Part shown: in pieces, positions 1 through 45,000 of the stretch
How positions within the stretch are numbered: the stretch's first letter is position 1
How the letters are laid out: every line of letters begins with the position of its first letter
NCBI GenBank assembly: GCA_965285935.1
Contig: OZ260662.1
Coordinates: 65,162,001-65,226,000 of the forward strand
From: Ophelia neglecta
Taxonomy: Eukaryota
Length of the DNA: 64,000 nucleotides
Direction of reading: 5' to 3'
Program-made: the position numbers

Positions 1-3000
1 GGGTTTCCCCTGGTAGTTTACTCAAACGGGGTATGTCATTCAGGGAACCTCAACACGCAGGGTACGTCAAACAAGGTAACTCGGAGAGGGCACCTCATTC
101 AGGGCACTATGAACAGGGTACCTCCAACAGAGTACGTCGAACAGGGTACGGGCAAGGGGTGGTTATCAGTTCTAAGTCTTCAAAACTGGTAGGCATACCT
201 TAAACAGAATATCACACTCATGGTACCTAAACAGGGTATCCTTCCTCGGTGCGGACAACTCATAAAAGGGGAATCAAAAAGGAGTACCTGAACAGTGCAC
301 CTCTAGTAGAATGCTTCAAACAGAAGACTTCAAACAGGGTACTTAGAACAGGGTAGGGCGAATATGGTTTCGCAAACACGATTAAATAATGAGCGTGATT
401 ATCGGAAGTTTACAAACATGGAACTGGGGACTTTGCCTTATTAAGGGACCTGATATGGTATAGGAAGGAAATTCCTTGTTAGAGAGTAGACTCATCCGGG
501 TGGGGACGACTGACCTGAGTCCTTGCCATGCGGATGGCATCAGCGGTGTTGGTGGTACCGTATCTATACTGAATTGCATCCACGCGATCTCTAACATCTG
601 CTCGGTTCTCCGAACCAACGTTCAAATCGAACTCTACCTGTTGATAAACACAGATGTTTGTAGTTAAATAGTAACATAGCTAATATCCAATTCAGTTCGG
701 TAAATATGGAGCAGTCTTTTATTGTCTTTTATTGATCAGCAGGCCTTTAAATTGTCCGGCAAAAGGAGTCAATTCTAGGATAAGCTTACGAATAACGACA
801 ATGTTAACATAAGGTGATAAAACATACCCTGGCCTCGTCATTGAAGGTAACAACAGCTATTTTAGCATTGTCAGGTCCTACATTCACGTTCTCGATTAAG
901 GTATCGAAAAACTTCTTGATTTCGTCAAAGTTTTCTGGTCCGACGGAACCGGAAGAGTCAAAGATGAATACTAAGTCCGCGTCATTCTGACACGCTGGAA
1001 AATTACATATGTTCTTTTGCACATTTTCAAACAGTGTTCATCGTTTGGAAACTATATTTTAAAGACATATTGATATATGTTTATATAAAAATTGAATTAA
1101 TCTTTACCAGCGACGGCCTCACAAGCAGCAGCCACCAGTTGTTGTTCGATCATTTCTAGGGCGTCGAAACTCTCCACGTTGAAGACATAATCCAGGTTGC
1201 CGATCGGTTCATTGCCAATCGCCACCAGCTCGTCTTGGTTTAATTGATCACCAATACCAATAGCAAACATCAAGATACCTGCTCATTGAAAAATCATTAG
1301 CTTAGGTCAACACTCTCTATAAATACACAATGTTGTTTAAACACCAGTATTTATCAATACTATTATACAAATTTATTTTTTTTTCTCCGCAAGCGAAGAG
1401 TGCATGTAGTGAAATGATATCTAAAAACATGAAAAAAAGAAAAAAAAGAAAATTATAAAAATAATATGCTAAACAAAACAAAGAAAAATGTAGACAATCT
1501 AGAATGGAATACCGAAAAATAATGAGACATAGTCACAAAATTATAACGATGCCACGAGATATGGACATTAGTGGCTACCTTCCCCTAAATAGATTACTTT
1601 CACACATCGAACACCCTCGCATGCACTACAATTCTTGAAAAACCATAACGGTGGCTGGGTTTTAAAATTAATTTTTCATATTAACAAGGACTGCAGGTGA
1701 TGTTAAGTCGGGCACCTCTGTCCCTGGCCTTGTCCGCCTCCTGGACGGTCAGTTCCTGGTCTCGGTTCGACTCCCCGTCAGTGACCACGATGCCGATGTT
1801 AGGGATACCTTGTCTGTCCCCTTTCTCCTCGGTAAACATGATATCGTACATGGTACGTATGCCTCCAGAAGTGTTGGTCATCTGACGGATAAAAACCATC
1901 AGGGTTGCAATTTTATGTACACATATCAATATTTTAATGGTACTTTGTCTACATATGCAAATGATAGTAACAGTTTTTGATACAAACTAGATGGGTCTAC
2001 ATATGCAAATGATAGGAACAGTTTTTGATACAAACTAAATGGAAGTTGTGTTCGTTAATTTCTTGAACTTTTATCTAGATCTCAGAAAATCACAATAAAA
2101 GGTGTGCTTTAAATTTAAATCATTAAACCTTCGTATCCAAGGGGTTAATTTGGGAAGAGGCAAACTGACCTGATCTTTCCATGGGATCAAGTCGATGGCA
2201 TCGGAAATCTCGGCAGCCGTGACGAAGGAATTGAGATGGAATTGAATGGAAGCCTCGTTCCCGTAACTAACCACGCCCACTCTAAGAGACGAATACACAA
2301 ACGCTACTTTAAGTAGGTTCTCCAAAAAAAAATCAAATTTTAACAAAATAATAGTGAGTTTTGTTTACACAAATTAAATAATTGTTGTATTGGCAATTAG
2401 AGCATATAATGTTCCTTCGAACATTGATGTTAGAATATTTTGAAATTCATAGGCCTATAGGGCCCTAAGTACGTTTACAACTATACAGAATGAAGCAATG
2501 ATAGAAAGTTTCACTGAAATGACCTGATTCCGAGGTCTCCGACTTCGAAGGCGTTAACCATTTGCTTGGCAAAATCGAGCACCTTAGGCCAGTTATTAGT
2601 GCCGATGGAGCCGGAGGAGTCGAGGACCAGGACGATGTCTGCCTGGTTACAATCCTCCGGGGCATCGTCCACGGGCGCCTCGTTCACCAGGGAGGGAACT
2701 ACATGGTTAAAAAAATAAAAACACACCCTGTATAGACAAACCACTGGATCTTATAAAGAACTATTAAAATCGGATAATTATTATATTTTAGTTCTATCTT
2801 TTCTTACCGATGGGTAACTAAGAGGGCCATCACCAGGCATGCAACAATCAGCAAAATATACTTGCTGACTACTCAATTATTGGTATTAGGTGAAATTATA
2901 AAGCAAATACAAGGGGCAGACAGAAAAGGGAGCTGGTCACAAAATAATTAAGGGCATTCAAATTCCGGATCCACAAACAAATTGACATATTTTTCACACT

Positions 3001-42000: not shown

Positions 42001-45000
42001 TGTTTTTAGCTAGTGTTAAAAGTTCTTTTTCATTGGTTTCGTTGCCAATGCCTATAGAAAATATAGTGATTCCTTTGGCGAGAGCTGCAATTGACACATT
42101 CTTTATATTTTCTGTTTCTCTGTTGCTAGCGCCATCCGTAACGACGACGGCGATATCCGGTGCCGTGACACGGGCACCGTTCGGTTTTGTGAACATAAAT
42201 TCGGTAGCATACCGTACGGCACCGCTTGTGTTCGTTTCTTCATCTTTCCAGCGCATAAATTTCAAGGCTTGAATGATCTCTTGTCGTGTGTAATGTCTAT
42301 TTAGATGAAATCCGGTGTGATTTTCGTTGCGGACGTCCACCTCTGCGCCGTTTCCGTATATGAGAACTCCCACGCGCGTGGCGTGGTAGCCCACGTCCAG
42401 CGCGTTTACCATGGCAGTCACAAACGACTTGATCTTGCCCCAGTTGTCTTCACCCACACTTCCGCTCGAATCCAATATGAATACAATGTCTGATTTAGAG
42501 CAATCTTGACCTGTAATCAGAAACAAAATACATGTGCTAATTCATTGTCAAATCCAAAAGTGGAAGTAACACATGGCTCCTTACTATACGAATGACTCTA
42601 GGCTTATAGGAAGGGTTTTTCATGTACATATCTCATATAAACATAACAAAATATCACATCTGATATGGGAGTTTATATCTGTGATGCCACCCCCACCACC
42701 TATCGCAAATTCCACTAATCGAAAATTTTTCATTTAATGGTTTCGCTTTGTCTGATGACGTTAAGTTTTTTTTTTTCTGATGTGCACTGACTGACGCTTC
42801 GAACGGGGGTTAGGGAGAGTTACATAGAGGTTGTTTAGGATTGTATCTGCAGCACCACTACACCGAAGCTCAGTACGAAATGCAGTAACCAATAATTGTA
42901 ATTGCCGTATATTAGTACGTTAAGATGTGCAGGGATAGGCAAGTGAGTGGGTATTCTTTAGATTTGAGTCAAGTCTTGAGTTGTCGTCCTTAGACCTGAA
43001 TTCGAATGCGAAATACTAATTTAGGGGCCTATCTTGTTAGATATGTTGGGACGAATTGCCATGATTTGCTAATGCGAATGTTGACCTATTTCTAGATGGT
43101 CGAGAATAATGGTGGAAGACGATGTAACACGCATATTAATGATGTATTTCATTGTTTTACCCTGGGGTTGTTTTCATAGTAGGGAAGCTAAGTCATACGT
43201 TTTGAGCGTGAAACTTATACTGACATGGATAAATTTGGCCCGACGCCAGACACACAATATTTTTCGATACTGACAAGGTTATGTTTTCAAGCCCAGTACG
43301 TATGTTTTTACTGTCCCATTTTATGCACCGGCCCCATTTTTTAATATCGAACAAAGTGCCACCTGCTTTAAAGACAAATCAAATGTCTGTGTACATACAT
43401 TCGTTATATTAATGCAGTAAAAGATATATAACTACCTGACGTGGCTTCTGGTTTCAATTGTGTTTTTGAAGAAAATTGCAACCACTATAATTCTATGTGA
43501 TTTGGGTTGTTGTGCAAAGAGAGTTATATAAAAGACATATTTCAGAGTGACAACAACAGGTCAAATCGATTTCAAATATCAACTATCATTTACTCTCAAA
43601 TAAAGCAATTGACGAGAAACAGATTATATGTTAGAAGTGAGACTATTCGGACCTGGGAAGACACCTGGCAATGGATACAGGATACATATTGTATTATTTT
43701 GTGCCGTCTGCCTCGGGCGTTGCCATCCCAGGTTGCCATAATCACAAACAGTACAGGCGCCTATACGGACCGAGTCAATGGATGATAGTCTCGGCACTTG
43801 CCAGCTTAATTGCAAAGTGTTTCTCGCTCGAGTTAAGACCATTGTGCTCAGTGTGCTCTTATTAGATGTCCCAACTACAAATCTTAGTGTTGAGCAAAAA
43901 TGAACTATTATGGATATACTGACCACCACAAAACATACAATGTTTTTTTTGGCGTTTTCTATTCCTCAAAAGTATTTCTAGATAGATCCCCCGGTCACTA
44001 TTGATTAGATATATAGTTATGTACAATAAGACACATAGCTGTTTTATTGTTAATTACATTCACGGTCACTTATTGAAGCATAATTTCATGTCTTCTTAGT
44101 TCTGGCTGTGTTACTTTTAATCCACGCCCGTCGACCACAGCACATTGCATGGTATGAATTAACAAACCAAAAGACGATCATTCTCATCTTATCACTTAAA
44201 AATAATAAAATCAATAACCAAGAAACAAATGTCGCTATCAAATAGGGTAAATTTTTTGCATTCTTTTGAACGCAATTCCTCATTCAACTAGTCAGTAATT
44301 CGAAATAAGTATTACCAGGATAATAAGCCTTATTGACAACCATAAAACAATATAAATTGGAATAATAAGACATCCTTTTAGCACAGTAAATAGCACAAGG
44401 AATGCTTACCGGTAACTCGTTTCACTCGATTCAGCGAGTGGTGTTGTGGATGGGACAACGAGGCACATTGGCTCGCAATTGCCAAAGTGCCAAGAATAAA
44501 GAACTTCAGTAAGATATCCATCATCTGAAAGGAAAAGAAAAACAACTCTGATGTATATTATTCTTTTCTTTGGTATTTTTTGATTCAATATTTTTTAATG
44601 TGGGTATTCCTTCCCATTTTTCAACAAGATTTTTGTTTCATTGCAAACAATCCAGACAATCCAAATGGCAGGTGACAGTTGTTCTTATCTTTTAGCTATA
44701 AATCATGAAACATAACATGGAAATACCCATAATCACACATAATTCTTGATATTAATTAAAATTATGTAAGATAATGTCATTTTGTATACAATAATGTGAC
44801 TATTATGACTTTACAGTGCAATTTGAGTTTACAACTTAAATAGATGATGCAGGCGAATGAGTAGGCCATTGGAGAAAAAAGGTCGGTCCCTCCTATTTCT
44901 TTATTCTGATTATACCTATCAGTATGCAATAGTTAGTATTAGCAAATAGGTCCCACCTTTAATCTCATATGGAACGGATTATATTACATTAATCCTAGCA

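What the first reader, a model, noticed from the sequence alone, without database searches (positions are those of the whole stretch)
515..42510. No intra-domain intron is shared between paralogues, while all domain-boundary introns are conserved
Seen: every SP/VWA/EGF boundary carries a phase-1 intron in all genes, and all six EGF exons are 114 nt. VWA1 is 1 exon in C, 3 in B and 4 in A. VWA2 is 1 in C, 3 in B and at least 3 in A. VWA3 is 4 in C and 3 in B. VWA4 is 2 in C and 1 in B. None of the 15 visible intra-domain introns (A 5, B 6, C 4) occupies the same codon and phase in another paralogue, and most follow an exonic AG. Inference: the ancestor had one exon per domain and each copy gained introns independently. 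Differential loss from a 15-intron ancestor with no overlap is less parsimonious.
Basis: partly seen in the sequence, partly recalled or inferred. Interest (0 to 1): 0.7.

Follow-up and report, generated by a model that had tools for sequence, protein, structure and literature searches.

The report
Tandem VWA–EGF genes, paralogue-specific inner introns
Three neighbouring worm-type genes for secreted matrix proteins keep an intron at every boundary between protein domains but share none of the 15 introns inside domains, a tidy new example of a pattern already known from other modular genes.

Summary
On the minus strand lie three tandem paralogues (C 44524-32519, B 19891-11839, A 6161 to before base 1). 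They encode signal peptide-VWA1-VWA2-EGF-VWA3-EGF-VWA4-EGF-VWA5. All 18 visible domain boundaries carry a phase-1 intron, and all six EGF exons are 114 nt. The 15 intradomain introns occupy 15 different positions; the closest pair (A and B, VWA2) is 5 nt apart. The sequence is not human; its nearest named relative is a Capitella teleta protein. Independent gain is favoured by internal statistics: 8 of 8 boundary positions are shared against 0 of 15 inner ones (p=2e-6), and 15 events are needed against at least 38. It is not proven. No eukaryotic genome could be searched, so the outgroup test was not run. The B/C duplication predates the split from Capitella, so these introns need not be young. 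They carry no introner, duplication or target-site signature. The pattern matches class 1-1 exon shuffling and the linker versus internal introns of mollusc hemocyanin genes. I rate it a new member of a known kind, of modest interest.

The parts
6032..6161 (-). Gene A exon 1: signal peptide, ends ..NRQKRQ, phase-1 donor
   Evidence: ATG at 6161; donor AAG|gtaact
2524..2698 (-). A VWA1a (175 nt), followed by intradomain intron, phase 2
2170..2281 (-). A VWA1b (112 nt), followed by intradomain intron, phase 0
1716..1881 (-). A VWA1c (166 nt), followed by intradomain intron, phase 1
1108..1278 (-). A VWA1d (171 nt), ends at the VWA1|VWA2 boundary, phase 1
828..994 (-). A VWA2a (167 nt), followed by intradomain intron, phase 0 (5 nt from B's)
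515..637 (-). A VWA2b (123 nt), donor CAG|gtcagt phase 0; the rest of the gene lies beyond the window start
19750..19891 (-). Gene B exon 1: signal peptide, ends ..HRTKRQ, phase-1 donor
19186..19497 (-). B VWA1a (312 nt), followed by GC-AG intradomain intron, phase 1
18947..19069 (-). B VWA1b (123 nt), followed by intradomain intron, phase 1 (1515 nt)
17288..17431 (-). B VWA1c (144 nt), boundary phase 1
16704..16875 (-). B VWA2a (172 nt), followed by intradomain intron, phase 2
16229..16456 (-). B VWA2b (228 nt), followed by intradomain intron, phase 2
15761..15924 (-). B VWA2c (164 nt), boundary phase 1
15242..15355 (-). B EGF1 exon, 114 nt, phase 1-1
   Evidence: Pfam EGF
14853..15009 (-). 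B VWA3a (157 nt), followed by intradomain intron, phase 2
14414..14639 (-). B VWA3b (226 nt), followed by intradomain intron, phase 0
13985..14171 (-). B VWA3c (187 nt), boundary phase 1
13658..13771 (-). B EGF2 exon, 114 nt, phase 1-1
12988..13551 (-). B VWA4, single exon of 564 nt, phase 1-1
   Evidence: Pfam VWA E 2.4e-39
12678..12791 (-). B EGF3 exon, 114 nt, phase 1-1
11839..12407 (-). B VWA5, single last exon (569 nt with the stop codon)
   Evidence: Pfam VWA E 3.8e-34
44410..44524 (-).
   Evidence: inferred from signal-peptide-like sequence and matching phase, with no homology support
41914..42510 (-). C VWA1, single exon of 597 nt, phase 1-1
   Evidence: Pfam VWA E 3.6e-37
41057..41620 (-). 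C VWA2, single exon of 564 nt, phase 1-1
   Evidence: Pfam VWA E 5.1e-41
40284..40397 (-). C EGF1 exon, 114 nt, phase 1-1
   Evidence: Pfam EGF
39042..39244 (-). C VWA3a (203 nt), followed by intradomain intron, phase 0
38794..38897 (-). C VWA3b (104 nt), followed by intradomain intron, phase 2
38467..38596 (-). C VWA3c (130 nt), followed by intradomain intron, phase 0
37920..38046 (-). C VWA3d (127 nt), boundary phase 1
37343..37456 (-). C EGF2 exon, 114 nt, phase 1-1
35411..35606 (-). C VWA4a (196 nt), followed by intradomain intron, phase 2 (743 nt)
34297..34667 (-). C VWA4b (371 nt), boundary phase 1
   Evidence: Pfam VWA
34055..34168 (-). C EGF3 exon, 114 nt, phase 1-1
32519..33087 (-). 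C VWA5, single last exon (569 nt with the stop codon)
   Evidence: Pfam VWA E 4.3e-38

Best explanation
The region holds three head-to-tail paralogous genes (order C, B, A on the minus strand). They encode secreted matrix-type proteins built as signal peptide-VWA-VWA-EGF-VWA-EGF-VWA-EGF-VWA. Each domain is a class 1-1 module, that is, coding units bounded by phase-1 introns. The boundary introns are therefore ancestral: they were already present when the five-VWA gene was assembled and later duplicated. The 15 introns inside VWA domains were mostly inserted later and independently in each paralogue, into what were single exons of about 565-600 nt per domain. They entered cleanly, without changing coding length, and mostly next to an exonic AG. 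Shown here: the gene models, phases, positions, non-sharing, the age of the duplication and the lack of any surviving insertion signature. Inferred: the direction (gain rather than loss). The insertion mechanism is unknown. The proteins themselves are presumably extracellular adaptors with metal-ion-dependent adhesion sites. I read the DxSxS motif in the exon translations by eye; no call checked each of the 12 visible VWA domains for it.
For: Gene models: 32 AG acceptors, 32 GT and 1 GC donors, no internal stops, closed frames. Of 29 junctions, 27 are gap-free in at least 2 of 3 reference proteins. All 18 visible boundaries are phase 1 and all six EGF exons are 114 nt. All 15 inner positions differ, both within and across domain types. 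Boundary positions are shared 8 of 8 against 0 of 15 inner positions, p=2e-6. Keeping 18 of 18 boundary introns at the inner retention rate of 0.39 has p=5e-8. If the ancestor held exactly the union of the observed introns, P(no overlap)=0.0033. Loss-only needs 23 losses on top of 15 earlier gains. Random independent insertion predicts no exact coincidence (P of any = 0.03) and makes a 5-nt near miss unremarkable (P=0.27). Five of the 12 visible VWA domains are still single exons, and VWA5 is single in both B and C. An exonic AG precedes 11 of 15 inner introns against 5 of 18 boundary introns (p=0.015). That is the direction described for younger introns in PMC3488318 (passages). The same review reports that paralogous families show more intron gains than losses. 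No coding-length change occurs at any inner junction, which excludes intronization.
Against: No outgroup gene structure could be examined, so direction rests on parsimony and heterogeneity arguments alone. The duplication is old. C-VWA5 groups with Capitella P0001 (support 99/97), B-VWA5 with P0008 (95/93) and B-VWA4 with P0008 (99/97), so there was ample time for loss. Annelids such as Capitella are described as conserving ancestral introns (PMC4085046 passages), which makes 15 gains in one family unusual. None of the 31 complete introns tested (14 of them intradomain) matches anything else in the window (the C SP>VWA1 intron was not included). There is no duplication or target-site signal at the junctions (7.1 against 6.7 matches of 24). 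The AG excess may simply reflect coding constraint at boundary codons, compensated by stronger intronic donors (GTRAG in 10 of 18 against 5 of 15, not significant). With a 2-3 times denser ancestor, non-overlap is not surprising (p=0.15-0.31). There is no transcript evidence for any junction.
Confidence: 0.65

Rival explanations
1. Differential loss only. The pre-duplication gene had all 15 or more intradomain introns, and each paralogue lost a complementary subset, for example by recombination with reverse-transcribed mRNA. The boundary introns were kept.
For: The paralogues are ancient (exon identities between paralogues about 40-65%). Annelid genomes are described as conserving ancestral introns (PMC4085046 passages). 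Loss, like gain, leaves no scar. A 2-3 times denser ancestor makes non-overlap unsurprising.
Against: It needs at least 23 losses plus 15 earlier gains. P(no overlap)=0.0033 for the minimal ancestor. All 18 boundary introns were kept, p=5e-8 at the inner retention rate. C lost every inner intron of VWA1 and VWA2 yet kept the 293-nt intron between them, which is odd for cDNA-tract conversion. A denser ancestor would mean about one intron per 19 codons in VWA1-3 but none in VWA5.
Confidence: 0.1
2. Mixed history. A substantial share (a third or more) of the inner introns predate one of the duplications and were lost in the sister copies, and the rest are later gains. The A-VWA2 and B-VWA2 introns 5 nt apart might be one ancestral intron whose position shifted.
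For: The A and B VWA2 introns lie 5 nt apart at equivalent places. Long divergence times.
Against: A pair within 5 nt is expected by chance in 27% of random placements. Alternative splice choices that would put the B intron at A's position break the frame (sequence read). No other near pairs occur within the same domain.
Confidence: 0.2
3. Annotation artefact. Some inferred introns or junctions are wrong, or one copy is a decaying pseudogene, so the position comparison is unreliable.
For: There is no RNA evidence. One donor is GC. C's signal-peptide exon rests on sequence features only.
Against: Every exon is open and every splice site is canonical (the GC donor has the GCAAGT consensus). Of 29 junctions, 27 are gap-free in at least 2 of 3 references and the other 2 in the closest orthologue.
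Confidence: 0.03

Closest known systems
Molluscan hemocyanin genes: linker versus internal introns (PMC8599328, passages read)
   Same: A multidomain secreted protein gene in a lophotrochozoan. [quoted passage not shown] Internal introns occur in all three phases, differ between lineages and paralogues, and are interpreted as later, gene-specific gains into large exons.
   Different: The domain is different (hemocyanin functional units, not VWA/EGF). There the direction was supported by many species on a tree. Here only three paralogues of one genome were seen.
[quoted passage not shown]
   Same: Extracellular domains are flanked by phase-1 introns, including the intron after the signal peptide. 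Exon sets are symmetrical, so domains can be duplicated or shuffled in frame.
   Different: The passages I saw do not name VWA. That VWA and EGF are listed class 1-1 modules is recalled, not taken from a call. The theory says nothing about later intradomain introns.
Capitella teleta hypothetical protein CAPTEDRAFT_220507 (P0001, 1094 aa)
   Same: Identical architecture SP-V1-V2-E-V3-E-V4-E-V5. Identity to gene C is 49-72% per exon. It is sister to C-VWA5 in the tree.
   Different: It is not identical to any window gene, so the window comes from another species. Its exon structure could not be seen.
Collagen VI alpha chains (N-terminal VWA arrays), matrilins, mussel proximal thread matrix protein 1
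   Same: Best solved-structure matches of C-VWA2 are collagen VI alpha-3 (9han_C, E 3.8e-94, two matched stretches) and PTMP1 (4cn8_A, E 1.7e-46). Fish collagen VI alpha-4/-6 chains are distant hits (28-33% identity). Several sources name the invertebrate relatives 'collagen type VI alpha'.
   Different: B and C end right after VWA5, with no collagen triple helix and no matrilin coiled coil. That vertebrate collagen VI VWA domains are one exon each and matrilin VWA domains two exons is recalled only; my searches found no text to cite.
Excess of intron gain over loss in paralogous gene families (reviewed in PMC3488318, passages read)
   Same: Paralogues carry introns at non-shared positions, and parsimony favours gains after duplication.
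   Different: That is a genome-wide statistical trend. This is one locus, with an internal control (the boundary introns).

Membership tests
Class 1-1 exon-shuffling modules | Each domain's coding unit is flanked on both sides by phase-1 introns | tested here: met
   18 of 18 visible boundaries are phase 1
Class 1-1 exon-shuffling modules | Domain coding length is a multiple of 3, so removal or duplication keeps the frame | tested here: met
   EGF 114 nt six times. VWA sums are 624, 579, 597, 564, 564, 570, 564, 564 and 567 nt, added by hand from the exon lengths
VWA domain (Pfam PF00092) with MIDAS | Pfam VWA match above the gathering score; DxSxS motif | tested here: met
   7 of the 7 VWA-bearing ORFs scanned scored 72-141 bits against a cut-off of 23.8. 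DxSxS was read by eye in the exon translations, not counted by a call. Metal binding itself was not tested
Matrilins | VWA plus EGF modules | tested here: met
Matrilins | C-terminal coiled-coil oligomerisation domain | tested here: not met
   The last exons of B and C give only VWA families in Pfam, and the stop codon follows ..LCQ directly
Collagen VI chains | Gly-X-Y triple-helical domain after the VWA array | tested here: not met
   B and C are complete from ATG to stop with only SP, VWA and EGF exons. The profile search found no further coding pieces
Introner / transposon-derived intron families | Many introns that are near-identical copies of one element, often with target-site duplications | tested here: inconclusive
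   None of the 31 introns tested matches anything else in the 64-kb window (blastn, word 9, E up to 1e-3), and there is no junction repeat signal. The rest of the genome could not be searched
Hemocyanin-type linker/internal intron pattern (analogy, not homology) | Boundary introns conserved in phase 1; internal introns variable between paralogues and in all phases | tested here: met
   Boundary positions shared 8 of 8, inner positions 0 of 15. Inner phases are 6 phase 0, 3 phase 1 and 6 phase 2

The most novel reading that the evidence does not exclude
A family-specific wave of intron insertion into unusually long (about 565-600 nt) single-domain exons, in a lineage whose introns otherwise hardly change. 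It would parallel gastropod hemocyanin genes and suggest that long class 1-1 exons are preferred targets for intron gain. The three paralogues and their orthologues across annelids would then form a dated series of 15 independent gains, with the boundary introns as a built-in control.
Probability: 0.3. Interest if true: 0.5.

Novelty: new member of a known kind. Interest (0 to 1): 0.3.

Why it matters
How and when animal genes acquire new introns is still poorly understood, and clean cases are rare. This locus offers an internal control: 18 boundary introns that never moved beside 15 inner introns that are never shared. If orthologues confirm gain, it would give a dated set of insertions in a slowly evolving animal group. 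As it stands, it illustrates known principles (class 1-1 modules, paralogue-specific introns) and reveals nothing new about mechanism.

Tried and rejected
1. Introner or transposon origin. The 31 complete introns of the first table were compared with the whole window and gave no hit outside themselves. The window is only 64 kb, so this is weak.
2. Tandem-duplication or target-site origin. Junction registers were compared, giving 7.1 (14 inner) against 6.7 (17 boundary) matches of 24, so no signal.
3. Intronization or sliding. Coding length is unchanged at the junctions. Alternative splice choices for the A/B VWA2 pair were read by hand and break the frame or create a stop.
4. Intron length and intronic donor strength as age markers. 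Neither is significant (p=0.36 and p=0.30).
5. First scan for C's signal-peptide exon failed. A looser scan gave one convincing candidate.
6. Literature on VWA gene structures. One search listed 2 irrelevant papers, searches listed none, and one search found no mention of VWA in PMC1800838. The collagen VI and matrilin exon structures therefore remain recalled only.
7. Pfam on 10 side ORFs and on the 8459-9040 ORF found no families.
8. A joined (spliced) protein or CDS was not built, searched, folded or put in a tree. All searches and the tree used single-exon translations. Gene A therefore could not be placed in a tree, only compared exon by exon.
9. Structure prediction, complex prediction, the atlas, RNA tools and the representative-protein search were not used, because they do not bear on intron history.
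Full report
WHAT IS THERE. The window contains no N and has about 38% G+C. I do not take it for human. Its coding content is closest to lophotrochozoan proteins, above all one of the annelid Capitella teleta. Minus-strand ORFs carry VWA and EGF domains: Pfam gives VWA E values from 1e-20 to 1e-41 and EGF about 1e-8. One single-exon VWA translation was used as a query and returned full-length relatives of about 1060-1100 residues. 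Their alignment shows one architecture: signal peptide, VWA1, VWA2, EGF1, VWA3, EGF2, VWA4, EGF3, VWA5. A profile of that alignment maps 33 ORF pieces of the window colinearly onto this architecture in three genes. The genes are C (44524-32519), B (19891-11839) and A (6161 to beyond base 1). They are head to tail on the minus strand.

GENE MODELS. Splice sites were chosen by frame, consensus and continuity with the relatives and tabulated.
- All 32 acceptors are AG.
- Of 33 donors, 32 are GT. One is GC with a perfect GCAAGT (B VWA1a).
- No exon has an internal stop, and phases chain correctly from ATG to stop in B and C.
It rests on sequence features only.
- Of the 29 junctions tested (signal-peptide junctions and A's donor-only intron left out), 27 leave no gap and no overlap in at least 2 of 3 reference proteins. 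The other two, both EGF1>VWA3, do so in 1 of 3, the closest orthologue, at a spot where the references themselves differ in length.
- There is no transcript evidence.
- The joined (spliced) step was left out, so gene A could only be compared exon by exon.

- All 18 visible domain boundaries are phase 1 (A 2, B 8, C 8).
- All six EGF exons are 114 nt.
- Exons per domain: VWA1 A4/B3/C1; VWA2 A at least 3/B3/C1; VWA3 B3/C4; VWA4 B1/C2; VWA5 B1/C1.
- The 15 intradomain introns (A5, B6, C4) sit at 15 different places on a common VWA profile and in reference-protein coordinates. This holds within each domain and also across the five domain types.
- The closest pair is in the same domain. A-VWA2 is split in phase 0 after ..DEAR, and B-VWA2 in phase 2 two codons further on, 5 nt away. 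The next closest pairs are 7 and 8 nt apart, in different domains.
- An exonic AG precedes 11 of the 15.

IS IT MORE THAN CHANCE? Non-sharing is exactly what independent insertion predicts. For the 16 same-domain cross-gene pairs, the chance of any exact coincidence is 0.03, and a pair within 5 nt is expected in 27% of random placements. The informative contrast is with the boundary introns.
- Boundary positions are shared 8 of 8, against 0 of 15 inner positions (Fisher p=2e-6).
- If inner introns were ancestral, only 15 of 38 visible gene-by-position cells would have been retained (0.39). At that rate, keeping 18 of 18 boundary introns has probability 5e-8.
- With an ancestor holding just the union of the observed introns, the probability of no overlap given the counts is 0.0033. 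It rises to 0.15 and 0.31 only if the ancestor had two or three times as many.
- No position is shared between domain types. A loss scenario therefore still needs 15 gains after the internal domain duplications, plus 23 losses. That is 38 events against 15.

AGE OF THE COPIES. In a tree of single-exon domains, C-VWA5 is sister to Capitella P0001 (support 99/97). B-VWA5 and B-VWA4 are sister to the same unnamed protein, P0008 (95/93 and 99/97). In the exon-by-exon identities, C exons are mostly closest to P0001 (49-72%; C_E2 and C_V3b have slightly closer unnamed relatives). Most B exons are closest to P0008 (51-67%); some are closest to P0002, P0006 or another window exon. B and C are about 40-50% identical to each other. 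A is nearest B, P0008 and P0002 in VWA1. The duplication therefore predates the divergence from Capitella. 'Each copy gained introns' need not mean recent gains. It also means orthologues exist on which the question can be settled.

SEARCH FOR A MECHANISM.
- None of the 31 introns tested matches any other part of the window.
- There is no duplication or target-site signal at the junctions.
- No junction shows a change of coding length, which excludes intronization.
- Length and intronic donor strength do not differ significantly between the two classes.
- The one difference is the exonic AG: 11 of 15 inner against 5 of 18 boundary introns (p=0.015). The review PMC3488318 (passages) describes splice information shifting from exon to intron as introns age, which would fit younger inner introns. 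But boundary codons are constrained by conserved residues, so this is suggestive only.

WHAT IT IS LIKE. Several known cases resemble this locus.
- Phase-1 introns around extracellular modules and after the signal peptide are the hallmark of class 1-1 exon shuffling (PMC8001218, passages).
- The closest described parallel is the molluscan hemocyanin gene. There, phase-1 linker introns are conserved in all genes. Internal introns occur in all phases, differ between lineages and paralogues, and are read as gene-specific gains into large exons (PMC8599328, passages).
- Paralogous families in general show more gains than losses (PMC3488318, passages).
- Against this, spiralians such as Capitella are described as conserving ancestral exon boundaries, with rates varying between lineages (PMC4085046, passages; PMC7854359, passages).
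- The proteins resemble collagen VI N-terminal arrays and mussel PTMP1 in sequence. They lack a collagen helix and a matrilin coiled coil, so they are not members of those families.
- The one-exon VWA domains of vertebrate collagen VI and the two-exon ones of matrilins are recalled from memory. My searches found nothing to cite.

VERDICT. The pattern is a clean new instance of a known kind. Interest is modest.

Noticed in passing
window 19070-19185 (-): The first intron of B VWA1 is a GC-AG intron (AATG|GCAAGT ... CAG|GC), 116 nt. It is the only non-GT donor among 33.
   Followed up: partly
window 638-827 and 16457-16703 (-): Near-intron pair: the first VWA2 introns of A (phase 0) and B (phase 2) lie 5 nt apart at equivalent codons. 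Chance gives such a pair in 27% of random placements.
   Followed up: yes
window 6032-6050, 19750-19768, 44410-44428 (-): All three first exons end in a dibasic motif just before the phase-1 donor (..RQKRQ..RTKRQ..RVKRV). Relatives have RLRRQ or RIRRQ at the same place. This may be a proprotein-convertase site; that reading is recalled, not tested.
   Followed up: no
window 1947-2042: A 48-nt unit repeated 2.0 times at 95% identity inside intron A VWA1b>VWA1c, a recent tandem duplication within an intron.
   Followed up: no
window 23019-23405 and 52314-52600: Two microsatellite-like arrays. One has period 24 and is C/A-rich, giving long Pro/Thr/His/Asn ORFs. The other has period 15 or 116 and is G+C-rich. 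Both lie outside the three genes; Pfam finds nothing in their ORFs.
   Followed up: partly
window 8459-9077 (-): Two overlapping ORFs (194 and 78 aa) between genes A and B contain a motif that I recall from reverse transcriptases of LINE-like elements. Pfam gave no family for either, so this is only a lead.
   Followed up: partly
window 41914-42510 (-): C VWA1 has an extra stretch of about 8 residues (around ..VRNENHTG..) relative to the other four single-exon VWA domains in the window, within a single exon (alignment).
   Followed up: no
window 44525-44540 (-): The ATG of C's putative first coding exon is directly preceded by tttcag, an acceptor-like site, so an upstream 5'UTR exon may exist.
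   Followed up: no
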